DNA of 64,000 nucleotides from Candidatus Dormiibacterota bacterium (GCA_963709585.1 CAVPXI010000023.1:1-64000); one strand, 5' to 3'. Numbered from the stretch's first letter, positions 32,307 to 63,952 are shown. The notes: generated from the sequence alone by a model not told the origin. Program-made: numbers and translations.

Positions 32307-33769
32307 GTGATGAACCAGCCGGTTCCCGGCCTCGAGGAGACACAGCGCCTTCTCGCTGACCACGACGGCGTCGCGGTCGTTCTCGAGCTTCCGATCGGCG
32401 AAGCGACCCCGGTTGCCGCCATGCGAGCGCTCGGGACTGATGCGAGCTGCTTCCTGCTCGAATCGGTCGAGGGAAGTGGGGCGGTGGCTCGCTGGTCGAT
32501 CCTCGGCCACCGTCCGTCGCGCGTGATCAGCGACGCCGGGGATGGTGAGGACCCGCTCGCCCTCCTCGAGCGCGACGTTGCGTCGATCCGGGTTGCCACC
32601 GCGCCAGGGGTTGGGGCCCCGCTGTTCGGCGGCGCAGTCGGCTTTCTCACCTACGAGGCGGCGGGGCGGTACGAGCGCCTCCCGGCGGCGACCCATAACC
32701 CGCTTGATCTGCCGCATCAGTGGTTTGCGATCTTCGACACCGTCGCGGTCTTCGACCATGCGCAGCATCGCCTGCTGCTCTCCAGCTGCGTCCGTCGCGA
32801 CGATCCCGAGGGAATTGATGCCGCCTACGAGCAGGCGCTCACCCGCATCGGCGAGTTGCGCGCGGCGGTGTGCTGGGCGGTTGCGGGCCGGCCTCTCGCT
32901 TGCCGGGCATTCCCGTCGACGTCGCCGCCCACGATCCCGAAGCCAATCTTTCAAGGGACGAGTACCAGGACCGGGTGCGGCGAGCGCTCGACTACATAGT
33001 GGCCGGAGACATCTTCCAGGTCCAGGTGTCGCGGCGATTCGCCGTGCCGCTGCAGGCGGATCCCTTCGACGTGTACGTCGCCCTGCGCGCCATCAACCCG
33101 AGCCCGTACATGATCTATATCGCCACGCCGGAGTGCACGCTGGTCGGTGCCTCGCCCGAGATGCTCGTCCAGGTCACGGAGAGCAGCGTCCGATATCACC
33201 CAATCGCCGGAACCCGGCGGCGGGGGCGCACACCCGAGGACGACGCGCGCATGGAGCGTGAGCTTCGATCCAGCGACAAGGAGGCGGCGGAGCACCTCAT
33301 GCTTATCGATCTCGGGCGCAACGATCTTGGACGGGTGTGCTCGACCGGCAGCGTGCGCGTCACCCAGCACATGGAGGTGGAGCGCTACTCGCACGTCATG
33401 CATCTGGTGAGCAGCATCGAAGGGACCCTCGACGAAGGCTACGGTTCGCTCGACGCGCTGCGCGCGTGCTTTCCCGCCGGGACGGTCACCGGGGCGCCGA
33501 AAATCCGTGCGATGGAGATCATCGCCGAGCTCGAGCCCGAGGTTCGCGGACCCTACGCCGGCGCGATCGGCTACGTCGGCTACGGCGGGGATCTCGACAC
33601 GGCGATCGCGCTGCGCACCATCGTGGTCCGGCAGGGCATCGCATACGTGCAGGCGGCGGCCGGCATCGTCGCCAACTCGTCGCCTCACGAGGAGACGGTC
33701 GAGATCGACAACAAGGTGGCCGCGCAGATCCTCGCGGTGGAGGAGGCGAACGCGTGGGCTCGACGCTGA
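32307..33769 (+). CDS. trpE: Anthranilate synthase component I, frameshifted near 32870
   Basis: FLLESVEG in ORF 32307; GDIFQV, INPSPYM, SPEML, HLMLIDLGRND, FPAGTVTGAPK in ORF 32870. Confidence 0.92.
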
Positions 33770-41527: not shown

Positions 41528-41815
41528 ATGACAACCACGGTTCGCGTTCCTGGACCGCTGCGCCGGCTTACCGGCGGCAACGCCGAGGTGATTGTCGAGG
41601 GCGACACCGTCGGTGCGGTGCTCACCAACCTCGAAGCCACCTATCCTGGCTTCCACGATCGTCTCTACGACGACTCCGGAAGCCTGCGGCAGTTCATCAA
41701 CATCTATGTCAATGACTCCGATATCCGCTTCGCCCAGGGCCTCGAAACCGCCATCGCCGAACGCGACGAGGTATCGATCGTCCCCGCCGTTGCCGGAGGT
41801 GGCGGTCGCCGCTGA
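41528..41815 (+). CDS. MoaD/ThiS/CysO-like ubiquitin-fold sulfur carrier
   Basis: VRVPGPLR, FINIYVNDSDIRF, IVPAVAGG followed by GGRR. Confidence 0.9.
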   Translation: MTTTVRVPGPLRRLTGGNAEVIVEGDTVGAVLTNLEATYPGFHDRLYDDSGSLRQFINIYVNDSDIRFAQGLETAIAERDEVSIVPAVAGGGGRR

Positions 41816-42923
41816 CCGTCCGCTGGATCTCCTGCCGCGATCAGCGGTGATCGCCGTGGCAATGTCGGGCGGAGTGGACTCCAGCGTCGCTGCCGCTCGC
41901 GTTGCGGCCACGGGTCTGCGCGCGTTCGGCATCACCCTGGCGATGTGGCGGGGAGGGCAGGAGATCGTCCGCGATCGCGGATGCTGCTCGATCGACGCGG
42001 TGGATGACGCCAGGCGGGTCGCGACCGCGCTGGCGCTGCCTCACTACGTCTGGAACCTCGAGCAGGATTTCGAGGGAGAAGTTGTGCGTGACTTCGAAGC
42101 CGGATACGAGCGCGGCATCACCCCGAATCCATGCGTCCGGTGCAACCAGCGCATCAAATTCGGCGTCCTGCTCGAGCGCGCTCGAGCGGCGGGGGCGACG
42201 CACCTGGCGACCGGCCACTATGCACGCACCGGCCGGAGGGGCTCGCTGGCGACACTGCATCGAGCCCGTGATGCCCGCCGCGACCAGGCATACGTGCTTC
42301 ACCGCCTCGATCAGCGCCAGCTGCAGAGCGCCGTCTTCGCGCTCGGCGCCGACGCATCCAAGGCGGGCGTCCGCGCCGAGGCGGCAGCCCTCGGTCTGGG
42401 AACGGCCGCCAAGCCCGAGTCACAGGACCTGTGCTTCATCGACTCGAACATCAGGTCCGAGTTGCGGCTGCGGCTCGCCGGTCGGTTCGCGCCCGGCGCG
42501 ATCATCGAGTCCGACGGCACGGTACTCGGGCAGCACGAGGGCCTCCCGTTCTATACGGTGGGTCAGCGCGCCGGCCTGGGGATTCAACCTTCGCGTCCCG
42601 ACGCGGCGCCGCGCTATGTCATCGAGCTCCTGCACGATGCGAACGCCGTGGTCGTCGGCCCGCGCGAAGCGTTGCGTCGAAGCACCGTCGAGGCATCCTC
42701 GTTCACGTGGGTCGCGGGCTCGGCGCCGCCGTCGGATACCGAGTGCGAGGCGCAGCTTCGGGCCCACGGCGACCCACACAGGGCACGGATCGAGGCAGGC
42801 GACCAGGACGTCGTGCGCGTCCGGTTCGAGACCCCGGTCGACCAGGCGGCGCCGGGCCAATCGCTGGTGCTCTACCGCGGTGATGAGGTCCTCGGAGGCG
42901 GATTGATCCGCCGGGCCGCCTGA
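41799..42923 (+). CDS. mnmA: tRNA 2-thiouridine(34) synthase
   Basis: AMSGGVDSS, GCCS, PNPCVRCN, ATGHYA, ESQDLCF, YTVGQRAG, APGQ. Confidence 0.95.
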   Translation: MAVAADRPLDLLPRSAVIAVAMSGGVDSSVAAARVAATGLRAFGITLAMWRGGQEIVRDRGCCSIDAVDDARRVATALALPHYVWNLEQDFEGEVVRDFEAGYERGITPNPCVRCNQRIKFGVLLERARAAGATHLATGHYARTGRRGSLATLHRARDARRDQAYVLHRLDQRQLQSAVFALGADASKAGVRAEAAALGLGTAAKPESQDLCFIDSNIRSELRLRLAGRFAPGAIIESDGTVLGQHEGLPFYTVGQRAGLGIQPSRPDAAPRYVIELLHDANAVVVGPREALRRSTVEASSFTWVAGSAPPSDTECEAQLRAHGDPHRARIEAGDQDVVRVRFETPVDQAAPGQSLVLYRGDEVLGGGLIRRAA

Positions 42924-42935
42924 GGCCCGCCGGCG

Positions 42936-43349
42936 GTGCCCCCGACCCCGGAGCAGATCGTCATCGGCATCATCGCGGTGCTCGCCGGCTGTCTGGCGGT
43001 GACCAGCTCGGCGTACGCCGGGCGGCGAACCGGGAACTGGCTGTACTACGTCTGCACGGTCGGGAGTCTCGCGTTCGTCGCGGGTGTCGTCGGCCAGCGG
43101 GTGTTCCCGAGCCCTGCCGCGATCACCCGCCTTGGGCCGGTCGCGGCCACGGGCTCCTCGCCGGGGCCATGGGATGCGGGGGTGTCATTGCCGCTGATCG
43201 GCATCAGGGTGACGCCGGTCGCGATCGTCGGGCTCCTGATCGCGGCCATCGGCCTGAGCCTCGTGCTCCTCTTCGAGCGCATCCCCAGCACGGCCCGTGC
43301 AACCGTGCCGGGGCGGACATCGCGGCTTGACGACGACGATTCGGTCTGA
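42936..43349 (+). CDS. Hypothetical 3-TM membrane protein
   Basis: Three hydrophobic segments and acidic tail. Confidence 0.65.
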   Translation: MPPTPEQIVIGIIAVLAGCLAVTSSAYAGRRTGNWLYYVCTVGSLAFVAGVVGQRVFPSPAAITRLGPVAATGSSPGPWDAGVSLPLIGIRVTPVAIVGLLIAAIGLSLVLLFERIPSTARATVPGRTSRLDDDDSV

Positions 43350-43382: not shown

Positions 43383-43997
43383 ATGACCCCCAACGCAATC
43401 GCGTTCTACGCCGTCGCCGTGCTCATCGTGCTTGCCGCCGGGGCCGCAGTTGGGCTTCCTTCACTGCGCCATGCCGGGTACGCGGGCGCCGCTGTGATCG
43501 TGCTCCTGGCCGTGCTCGAGCTCATTTCCGGCGCCTACGCGCTGGCTGTGGTGCAACTCGTGGTGCCCGCCGTGGCGACTGCGATTGTCACCCTGGTGCT
43601 CCGGCGTGACGCCTACCGCGGTCTGGTCGTCGTACCCCATGCGCCTGAACGTCTCTGGATCGCCGGGCCGATCGCCATCGGCGTTGCGGTGGTGCTCATT
43701 GTCACCGTGGCGGTCGTCGGATCCGGTTGGTATCCCGGGTTCCAGGGGTATGCGAAGCTCGCCCCCACCGCCGCGCTGATCACCGTGCTCCATTACCGCG
43801 CGCCGTACGCGCTCGCCATCAGCGTTGTCCTGGTGATCGTCACCGCAGCCGCCGGACTTGTCATCGGCAGGCGCAGCGCGGACGAGCAGACGCTCGACCA
43901 GCGCATCCAGCAGCGCCGCGAGCGCGAAGAGCTGGCGCGCAGGCGCCGCGCGGACCGAGAGCAGGGGCGACGGCGTCCGGCGGAGAACGACTCGTGA
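43383..43997 (+). CDS. NuoJ-like membrane protein (divergent)
   Basis: IAFYAVAVLIV start, LAVVQLVV, 5 TM layout, position before K/L/M/N-like genes. Confidence 0.7.
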   Translation: MTPNAIAFYAVAVLIVLAAGAAVGLPSLRHAGYAGAAVIVLLAVLELISGAYALAVVQLVVPAVATAIVTLVLRRDAYRGLVVVPHAPERLWIAGPIAIGVAVVLIVTVAVVGSGWYPGFQGYAKLAPTAALITVLHYRAPYALAISVVLVIVTAAAGLVIGRRSADEQTLDQRIQQRREREELARRRRADREQGRRRPAENDS

Positions 43998-44308
43998 CCG
44001 TCGGTCCGGGAGCGTTCGTGGCGCTGAGCGCCGCCGTTTTCGCAATTGGGATCTACGGGGTGCTCGCGCGCCGCCATCCGCTAGGGGTTGCGATGGCGAT
44101 CGGACTCCTGTTCGCGGCACCGGTCATCGCCCTGGTCGGGTTCACCCACGCGATCAACGTCGGACCGCCTGCCTACGGCGACGCCTTGGCCGCCCTCGCC
44201 ATCGTTGTGGCGAGCTGCATCTGCAGCCTTGGCTTTGCTTTGATCGTGCTGCTCTGGCGCCGCACCGGGCGCGCGGACATCGACGCGCTCGGCGATCGCG
44301 AGGCATAG
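43994..44308 (+). CDS. NuoK-like 3-TM protein (divergent)
   Basis: LSAAVFAIGIYGVLARR; size and position. Confidence 0.75.
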   Translation: MTVGPGAFVALSAAVFAIGIYGVLARRHPLGVAMAIGLLFAAPVIALVGFTHAINVGPPAYGDALAALAIVVASCICSLGFALIVLLWRRTGRADIDALGDREA

Positions 44309-44313
44309 CGGCG

Positions 44314-46345
44314 TTGACCATCTACTACGCGGCGTGGGCGATCCCCTTCCTGCCGTTGCTCGGCGCGCTCGCCTCGCTTGGGGCGGAAAGCCAGCGGCGG
44401 GCCGCGCAGCTGTGCGTCGCGTTCAGCGGTCTGTCGTTCGTCGTCGCGGCGATCGTGCTCGGCGTCCGCCTGACTCACGCGCCGGCCGCGCCATTCGAAC
44501 TCGCTGTTGACATTCTTCGCGATGAACCCACCGGAGGGCGCGGTCTTCGCAACCCAGTTCCAGGCACAGGTCGGGATCCACGTCGACGCGCTCTCGGCAA
44601 GCTTCGCGGCGGCCATCGCGTTCGCGACGCTGGTCATCCAGACATATGCCGTCAACGCGATGCGCGGCGCGCAAGGGTTCCGGCGGTTCTTCTGCGCGTC
44701 GTCGGTGCTCGGCTTCTGCACCACCGGCTTCGTGCTCAGCCCCAATCTCTTCGACTCGCTGATCCTGTGGGTGGGGGCGTCGGCGAGCCTCTACGTCCTG
44801 CTCTCATTGTCGTGGCAATATGCGGACGCGGCGCGTCGCGCGATGCGCGCGATGGTGATCCTCACCGCGAGCGACATCGCGCTCACCCTCGGCGTGGTCT
44901 TCACGTGGATCAAGTTCGGTGTCTTTTCGTCGCTGCTGCCCGCGCCTCCCGGACAGACGATCGCGGATCCCTTTTCGTTCAACGTCATCTCGCAGGGAGT
45001 GATCGCGACCCTGCATCACGGCGTGGCGAGCACCGGCCCGCGCGCGATCCTGGTCATGGGTATCGTGTTCCTGGTCGCCGCCGCCGTCCGCAGCGTGCAG
45101 TTTCCGTTCACCGTCTGGCTCACCGACGCCGCATCGTCCGCAATCCCGGTGCTCGCGCTCGCCGCGGCCACGGTCGCGCCGCTCGGGCTTTACCTCGTGG
45201 CGCGGATCTACCCGGTGGTCGCCCACGCTCCGCGAGCGCTTCCCGTCCTGGCGTTGGTCGGCGGCGTGAGCGCGGCGATCAGCGCCGCGACCGGGATCGC
45301 GCAGCGGAGCATCGCGAGAATCGCCGTGTGCGCCGTCGCCTCGGAGCTGGGGCTCGGACTCGTCGCCCTGGGGATGGGCGGATACAGCCCCGGCGTGTTC
45401 ATCGCGTTCACCTCCGTGTTCACCTCGACGCTCCTGCTCCTTGCAGTTGGCAACCTGGTGCGCGCCTATCGCACAGACGACATCAGCGAGATGGGCGGCG
45501 CGTGGGCGAAGTTGCGCACCACCAGCATCGCGCTCGTCGTTTGGGCGCTGCTCGCGGGCGGAATCGGCCTGAGCGCCTATTACGCGCTGTCGTCCGCGCT
45601 CAACGGCATCGACCCTGCCGGGGGAGTCTTCAGTGGGAGCGAGCGCGCGGTCGTGACCATCGTCACCGTCATCGCCGCGGCGCTCGTGGCGTTGCTCGCC
45701 GGTCGTCTCCTGCTCACCGTGACCTCCGGAGCGGTGACACGCCGGCGAGGATTCCAGCACGATCGGATTGCCGAGGTCGAGAACGCGTTACGCCGTCCCC
45801 TCTGGATCGCGATCGTCGCCGCAGTGGTCGCGGTGCTCATCGGGTTGCCGGGACTGCAGCCCTTCCACCTCGGCGGCGCGCGGGTCGCCGGCCTGACCTT
45901 CATGCGATTCGTGTACTACGGAAGTCATCCACAGGCGATCGGGCCTGATGGGTTGGCAGCACTCATCGCGCTGCTCAGCCTGGCGGGCGGTTTCGGCGCG
46001 GCGTATGTCGGGTTCGGTCCGGCGCGAAGAGCTGCGGCGCTTGCGGCCGGCGCTGCGCGACCCCTGCGCGTGGCCGAGCAGGGCTACTACATCGAGCGTC
46101 TCACCGAACTGGCCGCGGAGCCGCTGCTCGCGATCGCCGGGAGCGTGTCGAGCTTCGATGCGCAGGTGATCGCCCCGATCGCAGCCTCGGTGGGGGAGAG
46201 TGTCGATGACGACGCCACGCTGCTTGGAGCGTTCCGCAACGCTCGATTCGCGCGCTACCTCGCCGGCAGCCTGGTGGTCGTCACGATTCTCGCGGTGCTG
46301 TCGGTGCTCGCCGCGACCGGACATCTCTGGGTCCACCTGACATGA
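44314..46345 (+). CDS. NuoL/MrpA-like antiporter-fold protein (divergent), frameshift near 44497
   Basis: IPFLPLLG, VDALS, RRFF, SVQFPFTVWLTDA, YLVAR, DISEMGG. Confidence 0.8.
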
Positions 46346-47832
46346 GCGTCATCCTCTCGACGATCGTCTGGTCGCCGCTGTTCTTCGCGCTCATCGCTCT
46401 CTTCCTTCCCGAGCGCGATGACGACGAGCGCGCCCGGGTGCGGACGGTCGCGCTCGCGGGCGCGGGAGTGAGCTTCTTCGTGACCACATTCTTCGCCATC
46501 CTGGGGCAGATCACACTGGGCACCGGGGGCGGTCTCGCGTCGGCCTACCAGGAGAACCACACGTGGTTCGGGAACTTCCTCTTCCAGGCGCACTACGACC
46601 TCGTCGCGGACGGCATCACCCTTCCGCTGCTCGTGGTGGTGACCACCGTCTTCGCCTGCGCGATGTTCCACTCATGGAAGATCCACGAACGCGTCCGACT
46701 GTACGTGATCCTCGTGCTGCTGCTCGAGACCGCCGTCAACGGGGTGCTGTGTTCCTCGGACTTCGTTTTGTTCGTGTTCTTCTGGGGCCTGCTGCTGGTC
46801 CCGATGTACCTGCTCATCCGTATCTGGGGCGGCGACGGTGCGCGCCGGGCCGCCGCATGGTTCGCGGGATTTCACGCGGTGTCACTCGGGTTGATCATCG
46901 CAACCGTCGCGATCATCGTCGTGGAGGCGGGTGCTGGGTCCTCGGATATGAGCGCCGCCCAGACGAGCTTCCCGGTTACCGCTGAGACGGTCGGATTCTG
47001 GTTGAGCTTCGCCGGCTTCGCGATCGCGATGGCCATCTTCCCCGTGCACACCTGGATGCTCGAGGCGCAAAGCAAGGCGAGCGCCGGTGTCGCGACGATT
47101 CTTTCCGGGACGACGTTGCTGCTCGGCGCCTACGGGATGATGCGCATCAGCCTCGTCGTCTTCCCGACCGCGGCGCACTATTACTCATTCGCGATCACCG
47201 GGCTCGCTGTCGTGGGCGCGTTCTGGGGCTGCATCGGCGCCCTCCGCCAGGACGAGTTGCGCCGGTTCATCGGGTACATGAACGTTGCGCAGATGTCGCT
47301 CGTCCTGCTCGCCATCGGCGCGCAGACCTCGGTCGCGCTCGTCGGGGCAGTTCTGCTGCTCGCCGGGCAGGCATTCGCATCAGCGATGCTCACCCTGGTC
47401 AGCGGCGCGATCGAGGAGCGCACCCGGACCACGAGCATTCGCGCCATGGGCGGGCTCGTCACGCAGGCACCGCGACTCGCGGGTTTCTGGCTCGTCGCAG
47501 CGGCGAGCGTGATCGGGGTGCCGTTGCTCGCCGGATTCACCGGCGACTTCATGGTGTTCGCGGGCTCATTCCCCGGGCATCGGATTGCCACGGTGCTGGT
47601 GATGGCGAGCGTGATCGTGACCACCGGCGGTCTCCTGTGGGTCGCCAATCGCGTCTTCTTCGGACCCGTCCGCGACCAGTTCGCACGGGTGCGTGACGTC
47701 ACCCTCCTGGATCTGACCGTGCTCATCCCCCTGGTTGCCGCCGTGTTGCTGTTCGGCGTGCGGGCGGGGGCGGTCGTCCCGGTGATCGCCAACGGAGTGC
47801 TCGAGATCACCACGCGGATCGCCGGAGGCTAG
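46342..47832 (+). CDS. NuoM-like antiporter-fold protein (divergent)
   Basis: DGITLPL, LVPMYLLIRIWGG, FPVHTW, LGAYG, ERTRT, MGGL, RVFFGP. Confidence 0.85.
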   Translation: MSVILSTIVWSPLFFALIALFLPERDDDERARVRTVALAGAGVSFFVTTFFAILGQITLGTGGGLASAYQENHTWFGNFLFQAHYDLVADGITLPLLVVVTTVFACAMFHSWKIHERVRLYVILVLLLETAVNGVLCSSDFVLFVFFWGLLLVPMYLLIRIWGGDGARRAAAWFAGFHAVSLGLIIATVAIIVVEAGAGSSDMSAAQTSFPVTAETVGFWLSFAGFAIAMAIFPVHTWMLEAQSKASAGVATILSGTTLLLGAYGMMRISLVVFPTAAHYYSFAITGLAVVGAFWGCIGALRQDELRRFIGYMNVAQMSLVLLAIGAQTSVALVGAVLLLAGQAFASAMLTLVSGAIEERTRTTSIRAMGGLVTQAPRLAGFWLVAAASVIGVPLLAGFTGDFMVFAGSFPGHRIATVLVMASVIVTTGGLLWVANRVFFGPVRDQFARVRDVTLLDLTVLIPLVAAVLLFGVRAGAVVPVIANGVLEITTRIAGG

Positions 47833-47835
47833 GCG

Positions 47836-49323
47836 ATGACCGTGAATTTCGCGCACGCGATGACGCTGGCGCTGCTCCCCGAGGCGATGCTCGTCGGCAC
47901 GGCACTGCTCTCCGTGCTGGTTGCGGTGGTGCGGCCCGGACTCCGCCCCGATATCCATCGCTGGATGGCGTGCATCGGCCTCGCCGGGTCGCTCGCGGCG
48001 TGCGGGTTGGTGCTGCTCGGCCTCCGCAACATGCGCTCCGGGATCGCGATCACGGTCTGGAACGGCGGCTTCGTCGTCGACAGCTTTGCGCTCTTCATCG
48101 CGATCCTCGCGTGCGTGACCGCGCTCTGCACCTGCCTCATCAGCGATGCGGCCGTGCGCACTATCCCGACACGGACGAGCGCCTACTACGCGCTCATTCT
48201 CGTCTCGACAGCTGGAGCAGAGGCGATCGCCGCAGAACGTGAGATGACCACGTTCTTCGTCGCCCTCGCCGTCGTGCTTGTCTGCCTGGTCGCCCTCGGT
48301 GCGCTCGTCAAGACCAACCCGCGTGGAGCCGTCTCCTCGTTCGAGCACCTCATCGAAGGAGGCGTCGGCATCGCCACCGTGCTGTACGGGCTCGTGCTCC
48401 TCTACGGAACCACCCGGAGCACCAACCTCGCCGCGGTCGCCGCCGCCGCTCGCGCGGCTCCCGGGGCGGTCGCGCTCGGCGTGGCGCTGGTAATGCTCGG
48501 TCTCTGCGCCACGTTCGGCGTCTTCCCCCTGCGGCAGTGGGTGGGGCGCGTTGCCTTCAGCGTTCCCGCGGGCACGGCCGGGTTCATCCTGGCGATGAGC
48601 ATGATCGCTGGTGCGGGCGCGCTGGCACGCGTGACCGTCTCGGGCTTGGGTCCGGGTGTCGGGGTCTGGCGATGGCTTGTCCCCATCGTCGCGGCGGTCG
48701 CGCTCGGCGTCGCCTCACTGAGCTCACTGCGCGAGACCACGATCTCGCGCCTGATCGGCCAGCTGGTCAGTGCCCAGGCGGCGATGCTGCTGCTCGGGCT
48801 GCTCGCGTTCACGACCGGGTCGCGAGGTCTGCCCGCGTACGGGATGACCGCATTCCTCGGCGGTCTCGGTATCGCCGCGATCGCAACCGTGGCCGCGTTC
48901 GGGGTGCTCGCGATGCTCCAGGTGGCCGGGATCGGCGATGCCATCGGCGACCTTCGCGGGCTGGCCCACCGTTCCGCGCCGGCGGCGCTGCTCCTCACCG
49001 TCGCGCTGACAACCCTCGCCGGGGTACCGCCGCTCGCGGGCTTTCTCTCGCGCGTGCTGCTCATCTCGAGCGCGGCCGACACCCACTACGGCTGGCTGGC
49101 GATCGTCGCCGTCGGCGCGACCCTGCTGACGATGATCGCCGCGCTGCGGGTTGTGGCCACGCTGTACGCGGATGCCGGCGACGAGGTCCCGTTCACGCTC
49201 GGAGCCACGCCGGTGGTGTCTCGGGTCGTCGCCGGCGCGGCCTGTCTCGCCGGTGTCGGCCTGGTGGTGCTGATCCAGCCGCTGCTCGCGGTGGCGACGG
49301 CGGGAGCCGGAACACTGCGCTGA
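47836..49323 (+). CDS. NuoN-like antiporter-fold protein (divergent)
   Basis: LLPE, YGLVLLYGTT, LRGL, LAGVPPLAGF. Confidence 0.8.
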   Translation: MTVNFAHAMTLALLPEAMLVGTALLSVLVAVVRPGLRPDIHRWMACIGLAGSLAACGLVLLGLRNMRSGIAITVWNGGFVVDSFALFIAILACVTALCTCLISDAAVRTIPTRTSAYYALILVSTAGAEAIAAEREMTTFFVALAVVLVCLVALGALVKTNPRGAVSSFEHLIEGGVGIATVLYGLVLLYGTTRSTNLAAVAAAARAAPGAVALGVALVMLGLCATFGVFPLRQWVGRVAFSVPAGTAGFILAMSMIAGAGALARVTVSGLGPGVGVWRWLVPIVAAVALGVASLSSLRETTISRLIGQLVSAQAAMLLLGLLAFTTGSRGLPAYGMTAFLGGLGIAAIATVAAFGVLAMLQVAGIGDAIGDLRGLAHRSAPAALLLTVALTTLAGVPPLAGFLSRVLLISSAADTHYGWLAIVAVGATLLTMIAALRVVATLYADAGDEVPFTLGATPVVSRVVAGAACLAGVGLVVLIQPLLAVATAGAGTLR

Positions 49324-49358
49324 TCGCCCTGGAGCGCCCGTCGGGAGCGAGGCGCGAT

Positions 49359-50186
49359 ATGCCCGCCGTTGCGCTGGGCGTGATCACCACGGTCGTGCGC
49401 GTGCTCGGCCCCGCTCGCGGCATCGCCGCGGCTGCGGTGGGATCGACCTGGTACGCGCGCCTCAGCCGCGACGAGCGCGTCCGCGCCGCGGCGAATCACC
49501 ACCGCCTTCAGCCGCACCTCGACCACGCGGCGGCCGCGACACTGGCGCGGCGTTCGTACCAGGAGTACGTGCGCATGATCGTCGACTCGATGTGGGCAGA
49601 GCCGCTGGAGTTGGCCAAGGTGCTGAAGTTGTTTCGCGTGATCGGCGCCGAGCACCTCAACGTCGGCGAGCGCGGATCCATGGTCGTGCTCCCGCACTTC
49701 GGCAACTGGGACATGGCCGCGAGCGCCTCGCTCGGTCTCGGCCTGCACCTGAGCACGGTGATGGCACCGGTGGTGTCGCCGGGGATCACCGAGATGGTCG
49801 CGCTCTCGCGGCAGCGCAAGGGGCTCGAGATCTTCACGGTGCGGCAGTCCGCCCGGGGGCTGTTCCGCGCGTTGCGTCGGGGCAGGACGGTCGCGCTGAT
49901 GCTCGACGTTCCGGAGGCGGGTCCCACCGTCGTGGTGCCGTTCTGCGGCGGACCGGTGGCCTGCAGCGCTGTCCCGGCGCGTCTGGCTGCGGCCACCGGT
50001 GCGCCGATCCTCCCGGTCACGTGCCGGCGCGAAGGCCGGGGATGGGTGCTCGAGATCCACCCGCCGGTCGAGACGTCAGGGGACGATGCGGCGGTGATCG
50101 GAAGGATCGCGGCGCGCGTCGAGCCTGCCATTCGTGCCCATCCCGAGCAGTGGTATCCCTTTCACCACGTGTATGCGGATCGCTGA
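49359..50186 (+). CDS. LpxL/PatA-type (lauroyl/PIM) acyltransferase
   Basis: HFGNWD, ALRRG, PARLA, HPEQWY. Confidence 0.88.
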   Translation: MPAVALGVITTVVRVLGPARGIAAAAVGSTWYARLSRDERVRAAANHHRLQPHLDHAAAATLARRSYQEYVRMIVDSMWAEPLELAKVLKLFRVIGAEHLNVGERGSMVVLPHFGNWDMAASASLGLGLHLSTVMAPVVSPGITEMVALSRQRKGLEIFTVRQSARGLFRALRRGRTVALMLDVPEAGPTVVVPFCGGPVACSAVPARLAAATGAPILPVTCRREGRGWVLEIHPPVETSGDDAAVIGRIAARVEPAIRAHPEQWYPFHHVYADR

Positions 50187-51315
50187 GCGCGACGAGCTGA
50201 CCGTGGCGGCGCGGGCGCTGCAGGTGGCCGCGGGCGCCGGGTCTGTGATGGCGACTGCCTGGGCTCCGGGGCGCTGCACGCTCGCCGGCGAGCACGTTGA
50301 CTATGCGGGCGGCCTGGTGCTCTGCCTGGCGGTCGATCTGGGGATTGCGGCGGCGGTCCGCCCGAGCGCGACGACGCGGTACCTGGCGACCAGCGGCGGC
50401 CTGACCGTCACGCGTTCCGAGGCCGAACCCGTGGGAGACATCGGAGATCGGGTGCTTGCCCCGGTGGTCGTGCTGCGCAGGCGGGGGCTCTCCGTTCCGG
50501 CGGTCGAAGTCGGTATCGCGGCGACCCTTCCGGCCGGAGCGGGCCTCGCCTCGTCTGCCGCGCTCATCGTCGCCACCACCACCGCGCTGCTGCGGATGAC
50601 GGCGATGACGATGACGGCGCGGGATCTCGCCGCGGTTGCGCTGTCCGCCGAGCGCGATGTCCTTGACATTCCCTGCGGCCCGCTCGACCAGCGAGCGATC
50701 GTCGACGCACCCGACGGCGGTGCGTTGCTCCTCGACTGCGCCACCGGCGCCGAGACGTCCGTGCAATGGCCCTGGGCCGACGCAGTCCTCGTGGGCTGCG
50801 ACACCGGGACGCATCACGACGTGGGCGGCGCAGAGTACCGGCGCCGCCGCGAGGAGACCGAGTCAGGGCTCGCGGCGCTGCATGTCGCGAGCTGTCAGGA
50901 GTTGAGCGCACCGGCCCTCGAGACGTCGGACCTCGACCCTGTGGTCAAACGGCGCCTCCGGCACGTGATGGAGGAGAGCGTGCGCGCCGCCCAGGCGGCC
51001 GCGGCACTGCGACGGGCCGATCTCGAGGCGCTTGGACACCTGATGTCGGCAAGCCATCGATCGCTCCGTGACCTGCACGAGGTGAGCACGCCCGCGCTCG
51101 ATGCGGTGGTCGCCGCGGCTGAGGCCGTGCCCGGCTGCGCCGGGGCCCGCCTGGTCGGCGCCGGCTTCGGCGGTGCCGTGGTGGCGCTGGTCACGAGACA
51201 CGCGGCCGGCGCCTGCCGAGAGGCGATGGCTGACGCGTGCGGCGGAGGGTCGACGTTCGAGCTCCGGCCTTCACCCGGGGTCGCGATTCTCGCCCCCGAC
51301 GTGGTGCAGGGCTAG
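50173..51315 (+). CDS. galK: Galactokinase-family GHMP kinase
   Basis: APGR..GEHVDY, PAGAGLASSAA, LDQ, GARLVGAGFGG. Confidence 0.8.
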   Translation: MRIAERDELTVAARALQVAAGAGSVMATAWAPGRCTLAGEHVDYAGGLVLCLAVDLGIAAAVRPSATTRYLATSGGLTVTRSEAEPVGDIGDRVLAPVVVLRRRGLSVPAVEVGIAATLPAGAGLASSAALIVATTTALLRMTAMTMTARDLAAVALSAERDVLDIPCGPLDQRAIVDAPDGGALLLDCATGAETSVQWPWADAVLVGCDTGTHHDVGGAEYRRRREETESGLAALHVASCQELSAPALETSDLDPVVKRRLRHVMEESVRAAQAAAALRRADLEALGHLMSASHRSLRDLHEVSTPALDAVVAAAEAVPGCAGARLVGAGFGGAVVALVTRHAAGACREAMADACGGGSTFELRPSPGVAILAPDVVQG

Positions 51316-51327
51316 ACTCGACGCCGC

Positions 51328-51954
51328 ATGGCTGGCAACGCGGCGACCGCGGCAGGCTGCGCCGCCGGGTATCTGATCGGGTCGGTGCCGTTCGGCCTGA
51401 TCGTCGGAAGGGCTGCGGGCGGCCTCGACGTTCGTGATTTCGGCAGCGGCAACATGGGAACGGCCAACGTGCTGCGCACCGTCGGCGCCAGAGCGGGGGC
51501 GGTCACCTTCGCGCTTGACGTCGCCAAGGGCGCGGCCGCGGTCGGGCTGGCGCGACGCCTTGGCGCCGACCCCGCCGCGCAGGCCGCGGCCGGGCTTGCC
51601 TCGTGTGTCGGGCATTCATGGCCGGTCTTCGCTCGGTTTCGCGGCGGCAAGGCGGTTGCGACGGCGTTCGGCGGGTTGCTCATGGTGTCGCCCGAGGCGG
51701 CGGCCTGGGCCACCTTTGGCGGAATCGGTGCGCTCGCCCTGAGCCGCACCATGTCGGTCGGGTCGCTGACCGCCGCGGGGACGGCAACGCTGGGGGCCGG
51801 CCTCGACAGCCGCCGCCGCCGCGACGCGGTGCCGTTCGTCTTCACTGCGCTGGCGTCGACGCTCGTGATCGTCCGTCACGCGCCGAACATCCGGCGGATC
51901 GCTCGTGGCGAGGAACCGCAGTTGTCGGCCCGTCTGTGGGGCGGTCGTCACTGA
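51328..51954 (+). CDS. plsY: Glycerol-3-phosphate 1-O-acyltransferase
   Basis: YLIGSVPFG, GSGNMGTANVLR, DVAKG, GHSWP, FRGGKAVAT, HAPNIRR. Confidence 0.95.
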   Translation: MAGNAATAAGCAAGYLIGSVPFGLIVGRAAGGLDVRDFGSGNMGTANVLRTVGARAGAVTFALDVAKGAAAVGLARRLGADPAAQAAAGLASCVGHSWPVFARFRGGKAVATAFGGLLMVSPEAAAWATFGGIGALALSRTMSVGSLTAAGTATLGAGLDSRRRRDAVPFVFTALASTLVIVRHAPNIRRIARGEEPQLSARLWGGRH

Positions 51955-55764: not shown

Positions 55765-56364
55765 GTGCCACTCGTTCCTGAGGCGGTCGAACGGCTGGCC
55801 GCGGAATTCGGCCGGCTGCCGGGCGTCGGCCCGAAGACGGCGCAGCGGCTGACGTTCTACTGCCTGCGCGCGCCGGCGGACATGTCGCAGCGGCTCGCCG
55901 GGGCGCTCAACGACCTGCACACGCGCGTCCGTCCCTGCTCGCGCTGCTTCTTCATCGCCGACGGTCCGCTGTGCGCGATATGCATGGATGCCAAGCGGGA
56001 TGGATCGTTGTTATGTGTTGTTGAGGAAGCCCTCGACGTGCTCGCTGTGGAGCGGAGCGGCGAGTTTCACGGCCTGTACCACGTGCTCGGCGGCGCCTTG
56101 TCACCCATGGACGGGGTGGGACCTGATGAGCTTCGCATTCGCGAGCTCGAGGCGCGCGTGGCCGAGGGGGAGATACGCGAGGTGGTCATCGCCACCGATC
56201 CCGACGTCGAAGGTGAGGCGACGGCGTACTACGTCGCCGAGCGGCTCGCGAAGCTCGAGGTCACGGTGTCGCGACCGGCGCACGGCTTGCCCGCGGGCTC
56301 CGACCTCGAGTACGCCGACGAGCTCACCATGGCCCGGGCGTTCGCTGGTCGTCGGGCGCTCTGA
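55765..56364 (+). CDS. recR: Recombination mediator RecR
   Basis: LPGVGPKTAQRL, C4 zinc finger, YHVLGG, EGEATA, LEYADE. Confidence 0.96.
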   Translation: MPLVPEAVERLAAEFGRLPGVGPKTAQRLTFYCLRAPADMSQRLAGALNDLHTRVRPCSRCFFIADGPLCAICMDAKRDGSLLCVVEEALDVLAVERSGEFHGLYHVLGGALSPMDGVGPDELRIRELEARVAEGEIREVVIATDPDVEGEATAYYVAERLAKLEVTVSRPAHGLPAGSDLEYADELTMARAFAGRRAL

Positions 56365-56381
56365 CAGTCCCCCACCCGGGG

Positions 56382-56558
56382 CTAGCGGGATTTCGAAAGC
56401 CGTTGACGGGCGACGATCTTCGCGAAGATGCGTTCCCCGCACCCCGAGCACTTGGCCATTGGTCGCACGACCACTACTGCGGGGCCGGCTTCGCGCTGGT
56501 ATACCGAAAAGGTCAGCGGGATCAGGCGGTCGGCGCCGCACGCCGGGCAGACAAGCAC
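56382..56558 (-). CDS. Small zinc-ribbon hypothetical protein
   Basis: CPAC...CSGC; start uncertain. Confidence 0.5.
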   Translation of the reverse strand: MLVCPACGADRLIPLTFSVYQREAGPAVVVVRPMAKCSGCGERIFAKIVARQRLSKSR

Positions 56559-57050
56559 GATGGCCGTGACCGTGCCACGTCGACGAACCTTTCGTCTGTC
56601 CGCAAGAGTGCGGTCGCGGGCTGCTGAGCGCCGTCGAGTCGTTGGTGGGCTTACAGCGGCCGTTGTTCCTTCTTGGTCACCGGCCTTGCAAATCCCCACT
56701 GCATCTTTTATACCGGTAGTGGAGTAAGCGTGATGAAACCTCATCGGGAAGCATGGTTGACCCGGCTGTCAGGATCCCAGCCGTTCTTCTCGGTTGCGGA
56801 CGAGCGCCAGAGCCGGCCGTGCTGGTCGCTGGGAGGCCTTGCCGCCGGCGCCATCCCTGCCGCTGTCCGGTCGAGCCACGGGTACAAGGCGCAGCTCCCA
56901 TCCGATGCCCGCGAGGAGCCGCAAGCTGCCCGCCCCGGGGACTTCTTTCGCAATTAGATTTCTAGTACCCCTGCGATGACCGGTGACGTGCGCGATCACC
57001 TGTGGAAGATCGAGGTGGTGGTCGCGCCGCTCGCGTAGGATCGTCGTGAA

Positions 57051-57308
57051 GTGAGCGACAATCTCCCTGGCGGGGATACCCAAGTACCTGTGTGGGCCGC
57101 GTCGATGCGACCCCTCCAACTCGGGCCGCTCAGGCGTCTCATTCGAGCGCTCCTCAGCCTCAGCCTTCGACGCCCCCGGTCGTTTGTTCCGGGTGATGAC
57201 GAGGGGCAACCTCCTCCCGAGGGGGCAGGCGTCCCGGCGCGACCAAAGGGTCCCGCCCCAACCTTGCTTGCGGCTGCCGAGGTCGAACTGCCCCGAGATT
57301 CAGACTGA
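57051..57308 (+). CDS. Small hypothetical protein
   Basis: Pro-rich C-terminus GAGVPARPKGPAPTLLAAAEVELP. Confidence 0.4.
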   Translation: MSDNLPGGDTQVPVWAASMRPLQLGPLRRLIRALLSLSLRRPRSFVPGDDEGQPPPEGAGVPARPKGPAPTLLAAAEVELPRDSD

Positions 57309-57358
57309 GCACTCCCGGGGGTCGTCGGTCAGGATGGCTCACGCGGCCAGATAGCGGC

Positions 57359-57547
57359 TCAGTGTGGGCCGGGACGGCGAGGCGCCCAGTGCCCGGCTGC
57401 GAGGGCCACGAGCGCAAAGAAGAGAAAAAACAACAACGGCTCCACCGGGATCCACCTGAGGAAAGTCCAGGATTGCACGAGACCGAGAAGCAAGAGCGCG
57501 AAGGCGCCTGCGAGAAGCCACCATCGACGGCTAACCAGCCAGCGCAC
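57359..57547 (-). CDS. Possible small 2-TM membrane protein
   Basis: Two strongly hydrophobic segments in 62 aa. Confidence 0.35.
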   Translation of the reverse strand: MRWLVSRRWWLLAGAFALLLLGLVQSWTFLRWIPVEPLLFFLFFALVALAAGHWAPRRPGPH

Positions 57548-58493
57548 GCCCCGATTCTGTCATGGATCGCGCGGGTACCCAAGTTGCGTGCCCTTGGGCG
57601 CTCCGGCATAGATCACCAGGAGCACAGCCTGGAAGATCAAGGAGATCGGCGCCCTTCTCGACGCGTAGCGCTAGGCTTGCCGAGTGAGGCGCAAGATCGC
57701 CATCGCCCTGGTGGCGGTGGCCATCGCTGTGGGTTATGCGCTCTCCTTGGCGCGGGTACGGCAACCTTAGTCGCCCTGATAGCTCTGGCCATCGATCGCT
57801 GGCCTGAGACGACCTACTCAACCTGAGGCACCACGCCACCGGCGAGCTGCGTGAGCACATGAACTCGGGGTTGCTCTGAAAGTCTCAAGGTGATGCTGTC
57901 CTCCATGTGGACAGAATCCCTGGACTTGTAGCCCGGTCAGATTCCCTGACCTACTTCAGGCCAGCCAGGCCAACTTGACCTGGGACCTCGGGACCAGTAG
58001 ACTTCGTGGGTTGCCCGCTCGGGGGTGCTCCCGACGGCCGCGTTGCCAGGGATCCATCGTGGACTTGGCGCGCCATGAACCTTGACACTTGAAGAGTGGA
58101 GACGACTTTCCGCGACGGCCTTGGGTCTCGTGCGATCGAGCACGGACCGGCGTAGGCCTCGTCAAAGCATGTCTACGACCCGGGTTTACCGGGACACAGA
58201 CGTATTCATGGAGAGTTTGATCCTGGCTCAGGATTAACGCTGGCGGCGTGCATGAAACATGCAAGTCGAGCGCGGTGTGATGAGGGGTAACCCAATTCAC
58301 ATCTAGCGGCGAACGGGTGAGTAACACGTGAGCAACCTACCTTCGAGTTGGGGATAGCCCTGGGAAACCAGGATTAATACCCGATGTGGTCACAACAGGA
58401 CATCCTGATGTGAGTAAAGGCGTAAGCCGCTCGATGACGGGCTCGCGGCCTATTAGCTTGTTGGTGGGGTAACGGCCTACCAAGGCGATGATG

Positions 58494-58567
<74 letters not shown>

Positions 58568-58689
58568 TAGGAATTTTCCGCAATGGGCGAAAGCCTGACG
58601 GAGCAACGCCGCGTGAGTGATGAAGACCTTCGGGTTGTAAAGCTCTGTCGGAGGGGAAGAACACAATGACGGTACCCTCCAAGAAAGCC

Positions 58690-58728
<39 letters not shown>

Positions 58729-58885
58729 GGGCGAGCGTTATCCGGATTTACTGGGCGTAAAGCGCGTTAAGGCGGCCGACAAAGTTGGTGGTGAAATTTC
58801 AGGGCTCAACTCTGAAACTGCCTCCAATACTAGTCGGCTTGAGTGCGAGAGAGGAAGGTGGAATTCCCGGTGTAGTAGTGAAATG

Positions 58886-58922
<37 letters not shown>

Positions 58923-58959
58923 CTTCTGGCTCGCAACTGACGCTGTAGCGCGAAAGCGT

Positions 58960-58993
<34 letters not shown>

Positions 58994-59092
58994 ACGCCCT
59001 AAACGATGTGCACTAGGTGTTGGGCGTATTGACGCGCTCAGTGCCGCAGCTAACGCATTAAGTGCACCGCCTGGGGAGTACGGTCGCAAGAT

Positions 59093-59136
<44 letters not shown>

Positions 59137-59236
59137 ATGTGGTTTAATTCGAGGCAACGCGAAGAACCTTACCCAGGTTTGACATGCATTCGAAAACCGT
59201 GGAAACACGGTCCCCGAAAGGTGGATGCACAGGTGG

Positions 59237-59303
<67 letters not shown>

Positions 59304-59548
59304 GGTTAGTTGTATTTTCTAGCCAGACTGCTGGGAGAAACCCAGAGGAAGGTGGGGATGACGTCAAGTCATCATGCCCTTTATACCTGGGGCTACACAC
59401 ATGCTACAATGCCCAGTACAACGGGCTGCGACACCGCGAGGTGAAGCCAATCCCTTAAAGCTGGGCCCAGTTCGGATTGCAGGCTGCAACTCGCCTGCAT
59501 GAAGTCGGAGTTGCTAGTAACCGTGGGTCAGCACACCGCGGTGAATAT

Positions 59549-59583
<35 letters not shown>

Positions 59584-59671
59584 CCCGAGTTCTGGTGCAC
59601 CCGAAGTCGCTGGCCGAACCCGCAAGGGACGGAGGTGCCGAAGGTGTGCCCGGTGAGGGGGGTGAAGTCGT

Positions 59672-60453: not shown

Positions 60454-60497
<44 letters not shown>

Positions 60498-60884: not shown

Positions 60885-60899
60885 CGCTCGTATCCGTTC

Positions 60900-61705: not shown

Positions 61706-61751
<46 letters not shown>

Positions 61752-63938: not shown

Positions 63939-63952
63939 AACGGTCCTAAGGT

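What the first reader, a model, noticed from the sequence alone, without database searches (positions are those of the whole stretch)
43383..49323. Stand-alone NuoJKLMN-like membrane module stripped of proton-translocating charged residues
Seen: five contiguous genes with the order, size and motifs of the complex I membrane arm, with no nuoA/B/C/D/H/I, hydrogenase or other Mrp subunit recognisable nearby. Aligning by eye to E. coli motifs from memory, the central-axis residues look replaced. K-like: both Glu (E36/E72 equivalents) become G and I (MAIGLLF, ASCICSLG). L-like: WEGVG to WVGAS, KSAQ to RSVQ, HAFFKA to SVFTST, SKD lost. M-like: FWE to FWG, VKMP to IAMA, LLK to LLL, SHMG to AQMS, HG to QA, GEF to GDF. 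N-like: TM5 Glu to A, FKLS to ATFG, SK to SM, GK to SR. Established: these Glu/Lys/His residues are needed for pumping in complex I and Mrp. Gly/Pro structural motifs remain and frames are open apart from one indel, which argues against random decay. Inference: a repurposed pseudo-antiporter complex, such as a non-pumping alternative arm, an assembly scaffold or a transporter of uncharged/lipid substrate. I do not know of a description of this.
Basis: partly seen in the sequence, partly recalled or inferred. Interest (0 to 1): 0.85.

Follow-up and report, generated by a model that had tools for sequence, protein, structure and literature searches.

The report
Charge-stripped leftover complex I membrane arm
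Five genes in this soil bacterium are the leftover membrane half of a second respiratory complex I that lost its electron-handling genes and almost every proton-carrying residue, yet natural selection still keeps the proteins intact, so they probably do some job other than pumping.

Summary
Window 43383-49323 encodes true homologues of NuoJ, K, L, M and N. The genome has no second NuoA, D or H. A full canonical nuoA-N operon lies on another contig. Only 1 of 24 proton-axis residues (E. coli numbering) is kept.

The one indel, an extra base at about 44498, is an assembly error. It is missing from contigs of 4 of 4 sequencing runs and from all 7 species of the genus.

Origin: in related Dormibacteria the same mnmA-to-plsY locus holds an 11-gene nuoABCDHIJKLMN operon that keeps 24 of 24 axis residues. 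Here nuoA-I were deleted. Intermediate lineages keep 11-13 of 24. Stripping happened at least twice. J-N-only clusters were seen in four of the five families sampled.

This is not decay. dN/dS is 0.04-0.25, similar to neighbouring housekeeping genes and to the intact 11-gene arm. The fold is kept: the M-like AlphaFold2 model has pLDDT 87 and TM-score 0.92 to NuoM. Structural Pro/Trp motifs are conserved, and two Lys became conserved Arg.

Best reading: an assembled, proton-inert membrane arm kept for an unknown, non-pumping role. I found no published description. Unchecked earlier notes of this scan report similar relics in other phyla.

The parts
43383..43997 (+). NuoJ-like subunit (204 aa). 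The TM3 'YAGAI' motif is lost. It carries a conserved Arg/Glu-rich C-terminal tail.
   Evidence: hhalign against NuoJ of related 11-gene operons: probability 99.7%, E 1.2e-26. No Pfam hit. NCBIfam NuoJ 20.4 bits against a cut-off of 192. The tail is the best conserved segment.
43994..44308 (+). NuoK-like subunit (104 aa). Both membrane Glu are replaced (E36 to G37, E72 to I76).
   Evidence: PF00420 48.4 bits. phmmer to 6hum_E 5.2e-10 and 4he8_K 3.3e-09, with alignments. Residue table.
44314..46345 (+). NuoL-like subunit, about 675 aa once the spurious extra base at about 44498 is ignored. 1 of 10 axis residues is kept (D178 equivalent, D187). K229 became R259. The TM12 Lys/Asp stretch is deleted.
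   Evidence: PF00662 plus PF00361. Start codon aligned with GTG/ATG in other species of the genus, and the single-base insertion. The base is absent from contigs of 4 of 4 runs. The L-like gene reads in one frame in the 21 loci where both parts were detected. AlphaFold2 model of the G194 orthologue: pTM 0.82.
46342..47832 (+). NuoM-like subunit (496 aa), the best conserved of the five. 0 of 6 axis residues are identical (E407 to D is conservative).
   Evidence: PF00361 140.6 bits. Passes NCBIfam TIGR01972, 306.7 against 263.8. phmmer to 8qby_M 9.7e-52 with alignment. AlphaFold2 pLDDT 87.2, pTM 0.90. Foldseek to 8qby_M: TM 0.92, rmsd 2.1.
47836..49323 (+). NuoN-like subunit (495 aa). 0 of 6 axis residues are identical. 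K395 became R406, which is conserved in the stripped clade.
   Evidence: PF00361 68.4 bits. phmmer to 6hum_B 6.6e-24 with alignment. Residue table.
42936..43349 (+). Conserved small membrane protein of about three predicted helices ('up137'), directly upstream. Whether it belongs to the complex is not shown.
   Evidence: Found upstream of J in the stripped clusters and upstream of nuoA in the full operon of G153. It is not a NuoA homologue: hhalign probability 0.3%. No Pfam or NCBIfam hit.
41592..42923 (+). mnmA, the upstream synteny anchor of the locus.
   Evidence: PF03054, PF20258 and PF20259. It flanks the cluster in related genomes.
49359..51954 (+). Downstream synteny anchors: lipid A-type acyltransferase (49359-50186), galactokinase-like gene (50134-51315) and plsY (51328-51954).
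   Evidence: PF03279 119 bits. GHMP kinase and galactokinase domains. plsY is labelled from my reading of its translation, with no family search. These genes flank both the full and the stripped versions of the locus.

Best explanation
The five genes are what is left of the membrane arm (P-module, NuoJ-K-L-M-N) of a second, 11-subunit complex I-type enzyme (nuoABCDHIJKLMN, without NuoE/F/G). That enzyme's operon ancestrally sat between mnmA and plsY in Dormibacteria. A deletion removed the contiguous 5' half of the operon, nuoA-B-C-D-H-I. With it went the quinone/redox module and the NuoH/NuoA coupling site.

After that, the proton-relay residues were no longer held by selection. These are the TM5 Glu, the TM7/TM8/TM12 Lys/His/Glu and the two NuoK Glu. 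They were replaced step by step by small or hydrophobic residues. Two buried Lys became Arg, which keeps a charge but cannot shuttle protons.

The proteins themselves stayed under purifying selection as strong as that on the intact arm. They keep the antiporter-like fold, the Pro/Trp motifs of the broken helices, the full-length L subunit and the tight translational coupling.

The most likely product is therefore an assembled J-K-N-M-L membrane complex that is inert for protons and serves a structural or other non-pumping role.

Shown: homology, origin, loss of residues, selection and predicted fold. Inferred: that the subunits still assemble, that the complex does not translocate ions, and that it has a new role.
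For: Origin. In G110 and G083 the mnmA-to-plsY locus holds nuoA-B-C-D-H-I-J-K-L-M-N, confirmed by Pfam. G041 and G153 show the same map. All full versions keep 24 of 24 axis residues. In the window and its relatives the genes next to mnmA/up137 are J and K, with no A-I hits.

Graded loss. Family f2 keeps 11-13 of 24. The early-branching f1 genomes G163 and G158 keep 12 of 24. G165 keeps 6 of 22. Other f1 genera keep 3-5 of 24. The window's genus keeps 1-2 of 24.

At least two independent strippings. In the M tree the stripped f1 clade (99*) is nested after the full operons of G083 and G153, and f2 is separate. The L+N tree gives the same result. An AU test rejects one clade of all stripped rows, p = 0.0014.

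Spread across the class. J-N-only clusters beside mnmA also occur in f3 and f46, keeping 0-1 axis residue per subunit. 98 of 101 class genomes have 5 or more PF00361 matches. Only 8 of 101 have a second strong NuoH of the 11-gene type: G083 and 7 of 7 f4 genomes.

Selection (NG86 dN/dS). Window against G194: J 0.15, K 0.16, L 0.17, M 0.07, N 0.14. For comparison mnmA is 0.24, galK 0.20, plsY 0.05 and canonical NuoM 0.10. Closest pair G179-G198: K 0.15, L 0.11, M 0.035, N 0.055. Intact 11-gene pair G041-G053: K 0.09, L 0.13, M 0.15, N 0.17.

Fold. The M-like model has pLDDT 87.2 and TM 0.92 to NuoM of 8qby.

Site pattern. 14 of 21 scorable former axis columns now lie at or above the 66th percentile of column entropy. 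L D178 is invariant, L K229 to R occurs in 17 of 20 and N K395 to R in 18 of 20. The Pro/Trp of the broken helices are conserved.

The L gene is intact in the population.
Against: No experiment or proteome shows that the proteins are made or that they assemble. The only RNA-library signal is contigs at 90-95% identity, in which DNA carry-over is not excluded.

Pairwise NG86 dS is about 0.7-0.9 for most pairs. That may be near saturation in this high-GC genome, so most ratios are rough. Only the G179-G198 pair has lower dS (0.26-0.47 for L, M, N and plsY).

The absence of ion transport is inferred from residue loss alone. Conserved Asp, Arg and His remain (L D187, L R259, N R406, M H236) and could in principle serve another path.

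Some lineages have changed further. In G029 L lies about 300 bases from mnmA, with no J or K detected. In G092 the ORF at the K position is not recognisably NuoK. The five-subunit form is therefore not obligatory.

The AU test group was named after the tree had been seen.
Confidence: 0.7

Rival explanations
1. Alternative arm. The stripped J-K-L-M-N replaces the canonical arm on the cell's one remaining NuoA/H plus Q/N-module. This would give a non-pumping or low-gear NADH:quinone oxidoreductase when a high proton-motive force would stall the normal enzyme.
For: Every genome examined that has the stripped arm also has a canonical operon with one NuoH. The J and K subunits, which normally contact NuoH/A, are retained in most clusters. 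A paper on Streptomyces speculates about hybrid machinery between nuo and a partial nuo2 cluster (PMC9239103, passage read).
Against: The stripped J is only about 30% identical to the NuoJ of the related full 11-gene operons. The 11-gene lineage is itself separate from the canonical one. The E-channel residues at the H/A side are gone: both K Glu and the J TM3 motif. J or K are no longer recognisable in some lineages. No binding test against the canonical NuoH/A was run.
Confidence: 0.1
2. The complex is still a transporter or channel. It uses other residues or carries another substrate, for example a cation through a remodelled path, or an uncharged or lipid-like molecule.
For: A few polar residues are strictly conserved inside the stripped clade: L D187, L R259, N R406, M H236 and M Q317. 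The antiporter-like fold with its broken helices is kept. The downstream neighbours are lipid-synthesis genes: an acyltransferase and plsY, labelled from my reading of its translation.
Against: Most former axis positions are now among the most variable columns and hold Gly, Ala, Val, Leu, Ser or Thr. That is the opposite of a newly fixed pathway. Lys to Arg cannot shuttle protons (established chemistry, recalled). The lipid-gene neighbours also flank the intact 11-gene operon, so they are not specific to the stripped form.
Confidence: 0.12
3. A functionless relic. The frames stay open only because the genes sit inside a long co-directional gene string, or because broken membrane proteins are harmful.
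For: The cluster lies in an unbroken same-strand run from mnmA to plsY. No promoter-like site was found, and the count of terminator-like sites (2) was below the shuffle mean of 3.7. The sequence evolved fast after the deletion. Summing the branches printed, the path from the f1 node is about 1.2 substitutions per site to the window against 0.09 to G083. Some lineages have lost recognisable J or K.
Against: Polarity would protect open frames but not amino-acid sequence. dN/dS of 0.035-0.25 equals that of housekeeping neighbours and of the intact arm. The cluster persists in four families and arose at least twice. A simple deletion would remove any burden.
Confidence: 0.08

Closest known systems
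Membrane arm (P-module) of respiratory complex I: NuoJ, K, L, M, N (ND6, ND4L, ND5, ND4, ND2); solved in 3rko/7nyr (E. coli), 8qby (Paracoccus) and 4hea (Thermus)
   Same: The same five subunit families in the same gene order. The same antiporter-like fold: TM 0.92 to 8qby_M. The Pro/Trp motifs of the broken helices are kept. The L subunit is full length, with a predicted long C-terminal helix and terminal transmembrane helix (low confidence).
   Different: No NuoA, B, C, D, H or I partner of its own. 23 of 24 proton-axis residues are replaced, including both NuoK Glu. NCBIfam cut-offs are failed by J, K, L and N.
11-subunit complex I-type enzymes (nuoABCDHIJKLMN without NuoE/F/G), as in other Chloroflexota and in Dormibacteria family f4. 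A paper on such an enzyme in Desulfitobacterium (PMC11238625) was seen only as a search listing and abstract.
   Same: This is the direct ancestor by synteny and phylogeny. It occupies the same mnmA-to-plsY locus, and the window's M groups with these M subunits rather than with the canonical 14-gene M.
   Different: The window lacks the six 5' genes and the axis residues. The full versions keep 24 of 24.
Mrp (CPA3) multisubunit cation/proton antiporter
   Same: A stand-alone membrane complex built from NuoL/M/N-like and NuoK-like subunits without a redox module. Mrp chains are among the structural and sequence matches.
   Different: No MrpE or MrpG family hit in the genome. By phylogeny and synteny the subunits are Nuo-type, not Mrp-type. 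The ion-path residues that Mrp shares with complex I are absent.
Partial second nuo cluster of Streptomyces (nuo2, SCO4599-4608)
   Same: A second, incomplete nuo cluster of unclear function beside a canonical operon (PMC9239103, passage read).
   Different: According to that passage, nuo2 lacks NuoC, D, E, F, G and L but keeps A, B, H and I-type genes. The passage says nothing about loss of charged residues. It is a different subset of genes.

Membership tests
Respiratory complex I membrane arm (NuoJKLMN) | Sequence homology of all five subunits to NuoJ, K, L, M and N | tested here: met
   Pfam hits for K, L, M and N. hhalign for J: probability 99.7%. phmmer hits to solved Nuo chains.
Respiratory complex I membrane arm (NuoJKLMN) | Encoded with, and attached to, NuoH/NuoA and the NuoB/C/D/I quinone module | tested here: not met
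   No A-I genes at the locus. The own genome has only one NuoH, NuoD and NuoA, all in the canonical operon. G194, a single-contig genome of the same genus, also has one NuoH. Physical attachment could not be tested.
Respiratory complex I membrane arm (NuoJKLMN) | Conserved proton-relay residues in L, M and N: TM5 Glu, TM7 Lys, TM8 Lys/His, TM12 Lys/Glu. The positions were recalled, then checked on the E. coli sequence. | tested here: not met
   1 of 22 is identical in L, M and N. Pairwise alignments agree.
Respiratory complex I membrane arm (NuoJKLMN) | The two membrane Glu of NuoK (E36 and E72 in E. coli) | tested here: not met
   G37 and I76.
Respiratory complex I membrane arm (NuoJKLMN) | Antiporter-like fold with discontinuous helices TM7 and TM12 | tested here: met
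   The M-like AlphaFold2 model has pLDDT 87.2 with helix breaks at 230-236 and 392-396. TM 0.91-0.93 to NuoM chains.
Respiratory complex I membrane arm (NuoJKLMN) | Long lateral helix and terminal anchor helix of NuoL | tested here: inconclusive
   The model of the G194 orthologue predicts helices at 593-634 and 641-667, but with pLDDT about 40-55.
Respiratory complex I membrane arm (NuoJKLMN) | Redox-driven proton translocation | not testable with these tools
   This needs biochemistry. Residue loss argues against it.
Mrp (CPA3) antiporter | MrpE, MrpF and MrpG subunits beside the MrpA/C/D-like ones | tested here: not met
   No PF01899 or PF03334 hit in the own genome, which is 88.8% complete. 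MrpF was not searched.
Mrp (CPA3) antiporter | Subunits group with MrpA/MrpD rather than NuoL/M/N | tested here: not met
   The best sequence and structure matches are NuoM/N/K chains, and Mrp chains rank lower. By synteny and tree the cluster descends from a nuo operon.
Pseudogene cluster | Disrupted frames and neutral evolution (dN/dS near 1) | tested here: not met
   The only frame break is an assembly error. dN/dS is 0.035-0.25.

The most novel reading that the evidence does not exclude
Charge-stripped complex I arms are a real, recurrent kind of membrane complex with its own selected function, for example as a membrane scaffold or organiser, or as a docking platform through the conserved Arg/Glu-rich tail of J. 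They arise whenever a complex I-type operon loses its redox half. Dormibacteria would then be the best natural series for working out that function. Four of the five families sampled carry a stripped arm, one family keeps the intact ancestor at the same locus, and intermediates keeping 12 of 24 axis residues survive.
Probability: 0.45. Interest if true: 0.85.

Novelty: new variant of a known kind. Interest (0 to 1): 0.7.

Why it matters
The antiporter-like subunits of complex I and Mrp are known only as ion-translocating machines. Their buried Glu/Lys/His chain is treated as the reason the fold exists.

Here the fold, the subunit set and the operon survive for a very long time with that chain erased. 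Selection on them is as strong as on the working enzyme. This implies that the membrane arm has a second, non-pumping use, or can easily acquire one.

One bacterial class offers a full ancestor at the same locus, several intermediates and an extreme end point. That gives a natural mutational series for two questions: which residues the fold needs and which the pump needs, and what an isolated arm does in a membrane.

It also matters for annotation. The M-like protein passes the NCBIfam NuoM model, and source databases name it NADH-quinone oxidoreductase subunit M. Metabolic reconstructions of Dormibacteria could therefore count it as part of a second complex I, although the cluster has no redox module and almost none of the proton-relay residues.

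Tried and rejected
1. Pseudogene reading. I rejected it. The frame break at about 44498 is absent from related species and from contigs of 4 of 4 runs, and dN/dS is well below 1.

2. up137 as a diverged NuoA. I rejected it. hhalign probability is 0.3%, and up137 sits next to a true nuoA in G153. An ESM Atlas search gave no lead; the best score was 0.85 to unnamed clusters.

The verdict was 'no answer', score 0.00. This is evidence neither for nor against binding. Ten earlier hand-ins were not accepted because the queue was full (and 113).

4. Expression. An RNA-labelled run (X20) and a run labelled RNA-Seq but probably DNA (X18) hold contigs at 90-95% identity over parts of the cluster. DNA carry-over is not excluded, so I draw no conclusion about transcription.

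5. My first reference for the acyltransferase (49358-50186) was one base out of frame. Its Pfam blank and its dN/dS above 1 are artefacts and should be ignored. The correct frame, 49359-50186, is PF03279.

6. An early reading that genus g4 and G159 lack the cluster was wrong. Very diverged L-like and M-like genes, plus an N-like gene in G092, sit at the same locus.

7. The promoter and terminator scan gave nothing above shuffles.

8. Biopython YN00 and some NG86 runs returned errors or 'nan'. Those rows were not used.

9. The literature searches found no description of such clusters. The library lacks most subscription-journal papers. I looked at no supplements.

Full report
WHAT IS THERE. The window is high-GC DNA, 0.65-0.73 over most of its length. 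The closest protein relatives are named Candidatus Dormibacteraeota, Dormibacteria or Dormibacter by their sources. Between 43383 and 49323 five + strand genes follow one another with 4-base overlaps or gaps of 3-5 bases:
- J-like, 43383-43997
- K-like, 43994-44308
- L-like, 44314-46345
- M-like, 46342-47832
- N-like, 47836-49323

Pfam recognises K (PF00420), L (PF00662 plus PF00361), M and N (both PF00361), with E-values from 8e-13 to 8e-41. J has no Pfam hit. A profile of J-like proteins nevertheless matches the NuoJ of related operons with probability 99.7%, E 1.2e-26. Codon position 3 has GC 0.82-0.88 in all five genes, as in the neighbouring genes.

The M-like protein passes the NCBIfam NuoM model (306.7 bits against 263.8). 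J, K, L and N fail their cut-offs. In one search the Pfam scores of the three large subunits are 63-143 bits, against 227-244 bits for the canonical copies of the same genome.

NO PARTNERS OF ITS OWN, BUT A CANONICAL OPERON ELSEWHERE. The assembly (24 contigs, 88.8% complete) has a full nuoA-N operon on contig C14. It has exactly one NuoH, one NuoD and one NuoA, all in that operon. It has two NuoK and six PF00361 genes, and no MrpE or MrpG hit. G194, a single-contig genome of the same genus, shows the same picture: one NuoH and six PF00361 genes.

THE CHARGED AXIS IS GONE. I took E. coli K-12 NuoJ-N from NC_000913. I confirmed that the positions I recalled carry the expected letters. I then aligned them with the window proteins, the canonical copies and orthologues. 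Of 24 positions, the window keeps one, L D178. The 24 are K E36 and E72; L E144, D178, K229, H254, D303, H334, H338, K342, K399 and D400; M E144, K234, K265, H322, H348 and E407; N E133, K158, K217, K247, K295 and K395.

The canonical copies of the same genome keep 22 of 24.

THE INDEL IS AN ASSEMBLY ERROR. The L-like gene changes frame because of one extra A at about 44498. That base is absent from four aligned species of the genus. The L-like gene reads in one frame in the 21 related loci where both parts were detected. When contigs of four public runs were laid on the region, the base was 'left out' in 4 of 4 runs. One of these was a 2,996-base contig with only six other differences.

The same assembly also splits trpE into two frames. 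It breaks the canonical nuoL relative to three species of the genus. Indel errors therefore seem common in this assembly.

ORIGIN. Synteny is the key. In relatives the string mnmA, (up137), cluster, (acyltransferase, galK), plsY is conserved. In G110 and G083 the cluster at this place is an 11-gene nuoA-B-C-D-H-I-J-K-L-M-N, confirmed by Pfam, with D directly followed by H. It therefore has no NuoE/F/G. G041 and G153 show the same map. All these full versions keep 24 of 24 axis residues.

In the window, its 7 sampled sister species and most other genera of family f1, mnmA/up137 is followed directly by J and K. The simplest history is one deletion of the contiguous 5' half, nuoA-I. up137 is not a NuoA remnant. 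It sits next to nuoA in G153, and hhalign gives probability 0.3%.

HOW OFTEN AND HOW FAR.
- An M tree places the stripped f1 sequences as one clade (SH-aLRT 99), nested after the full operons of G083 and G153. The stripped f2 sequences sit elsewhere.
- An L+N tree agrees.
- Forcing all stripped rows into one clade costs 39 log-likelihood units, AU p = 0.0014. The group was named after the tree had been seen.
- Very diverged versions occupy the same locus in genus g4 and in G159.
- J-N-only clusters next to mnmA occur in families f3 and f46, keeping 0-1 axis residue per subunit.
- In a sample of 101 class genomes at least 85% complete, 98 have five or more PF00361 matches. Only 8 have a second strong NuoH of the 11-gene type: G083 and 7 of 7 f4 genomes.

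Matches are not copy numbers. These tallies include genomes flagged unpublished (G152, G172, G239, G252, G259, G260, G264, and G145 and G199).

The loss of residues is graded:
- Full operons keep 24 of 24.
- f2 keeps 11-13 of 24, and G163 and G158 keep 12 of 24.
- G165 keeps 6 of 22.
- Other f1 genera keep 3-5 of 24.
- The window's genus keeps 1-2 of 24.
- f3 and f46 genomes keep 0-3 of 24 where K, L, M and N could all be scored (G212 3, G257 0).

NOT DECAY. Pairwise NG86 dN/dS for the window against G194 is J 0.15, K 0.16, L 0.17, M 0.07 and N 0.14, at dS 0.69-0.82. The neighbours give mnmA 0.24, galK 0.20 and plsY 0.05. The canonical NuoH gives 0.04 and the canonical NuoM 0.10. Values against G188 and G179 are similar.

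The least diverged pair, G179-G198, has dS 0.26-0.47 for L, M and N. It gives K 0.15, L 0.11, M 0.035 and N 0.055. The intact 11-gene arms of G041 and G053, at similar protein identity, give 0.09-0.17.

The stripped arm is therefore as constrained today as the working one. Yet it travelled much further since the split. Summing the branches printed, the path from the f1 node is about 1.2 substitutions per site to the window against 0.09 to G083. That pattern is a burst of change followed by a new stable regime.

WHAT IS KEPT AND WHAT IS FREE. In the stripped f1 clade, 14 of 21 scorable former axis columns lie at or above the 66th percentile of column entropy. They hold Gly, Ala, Ser, Thr, Val, Leu, Ile or Met. 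Selection on those sites is relaxed rather than redirected.

The exceptions are L D178 (20 of 20), L K229 to R (17 of 20), N K395 to R (18 of 20) and M H322 to Q (16 of 20). Arg keeps a buried charge but is not a proton carrier (established chemistry, recalled).

The Pro and Trp of the discontinuous helices and many loop Arg are conserved. The M-like protein folds with pLDDT 87.2 and pTM 0.90. It superposes on NuoM of Paracoccus, Mycobacterium and E. coli complex I at TM 0.88-0.93. The L-like protein of G194 is predicted with pTM 0.82 and a long C-terminal helix plus a terminal transmembrane helix, the latter two at low confidence. The most conserved part of the stripped J is an Arg/Glu-rich C-terminal tail. 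The full f1 NuoJ has it too, but f4 NuoJ does not.

MECHANISM. Shown: descent from an 11-gene complex I-type operon, deletion of the redox and coupling half, stepwise erasure of the proton relay, continued purifying selection, and a retained fold.

Inferred: the five proteins still assemble as an arm, they no longer move protons, and they serve another role. I put 0.7 on this overall reading.

Three rivals remain:
- A swap-in arm for the canonical enzyme (0.10).
- A transporter using other residues or another substrate (0.12).
- A functionless relic (0.08).

KNOWN OR NEW. Six full-text searches found no description of such clusters.
- A preprint that mines nuo clusters mentions 'Nuo-Partial' and 'incomplete' categories without analysing them (10.1101/2025.03.13.643058, passages read).
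- The Streptomyces nuo2 cluster is a different subset of genes (PMC9239103, passage read).
- All other papers were seen only as listings and abstracts. No supplements were read, and most subscription journals are not in the library.

Earlier unchecked AI notes of this scan describe similar charge-stripped arms in other phyla. I did not test them. They suggest the phenomenon is recurrent.

What this case adds is the ancestor at the same locus, graded intermediates and at least two independent origins within one class.

Noticed in passing
G000 contig C14 (locus L007:8586-10289, minus strand) and L073 (G194): The canonical 14-gene NuoL of this genome and of G194 (same genus) has Ala at the TM5 Glu position (GWALVAL where E. 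coli has GWEGVGL) and Glu at D400. The other eight L axis residues are kept. A canonical NuoL without the TM5 Glu is unusual.
   Followed up: partly
window 32307-33769; L007 about 8800: The assembly seems to carry single-base indel errors. trpE is split into two overlapping frames: PF04715 in 32307-32999 and PF00425 in 32870-33769. The canonical nuoL matches E. coli NuoL only to residue 403 in one frame, whereas three species of the genus match to residues 562-606.
   Followed up: partly
window 43880-43997 (J-like residues about 165-204): The Arg/Glu-rich C-terminal tail of the J-like protein is the best conserved part of that protein in the stripped clade (mean column identity 0.76 for residues 181-200). 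The NuoJ of the full f1 operons has it too, but f4 NuoJ does not. It may be a cytoplasmic interaction helix.
   Followed up: partly
window 42936-43349: A conserved small membrane protein of about three predicted helices, with no known family. It sits directly upstream of the cluster across family f1, and upstream of nuoA where the operon is complete (G153). Conserved motifs are NWL, GxVGQR, WDA and GLSLxLxFE.
   Followed up: partly
window 56001-64000: GC drops to 0.56-0.59 at 58-64 kb, with positive GC and AT skew. This stretch is masked (reads N) in the laid genome copy. I did not examine it.
   Followed up: no
G179 contig C1, about 364-371 kb: One species of the genus has an extra weak NuoH-like gene (99.5 bits) next to two PF00361 genes (about 170 bits). 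It looks like a separate hydrogenase-type or FHL-type membrane module and is absent from the window's genome.
   Followed up: no
L079 (G029) 9282-12480; L076 (G092) 6685-7577: The stripped cluster keeps changing. In G029 the L-like gene lies about 300 bases from mnmA, with no J or K detected. In G092 the ORF at the K position is no longer recognisable as NuoK.
   Followed up: partly
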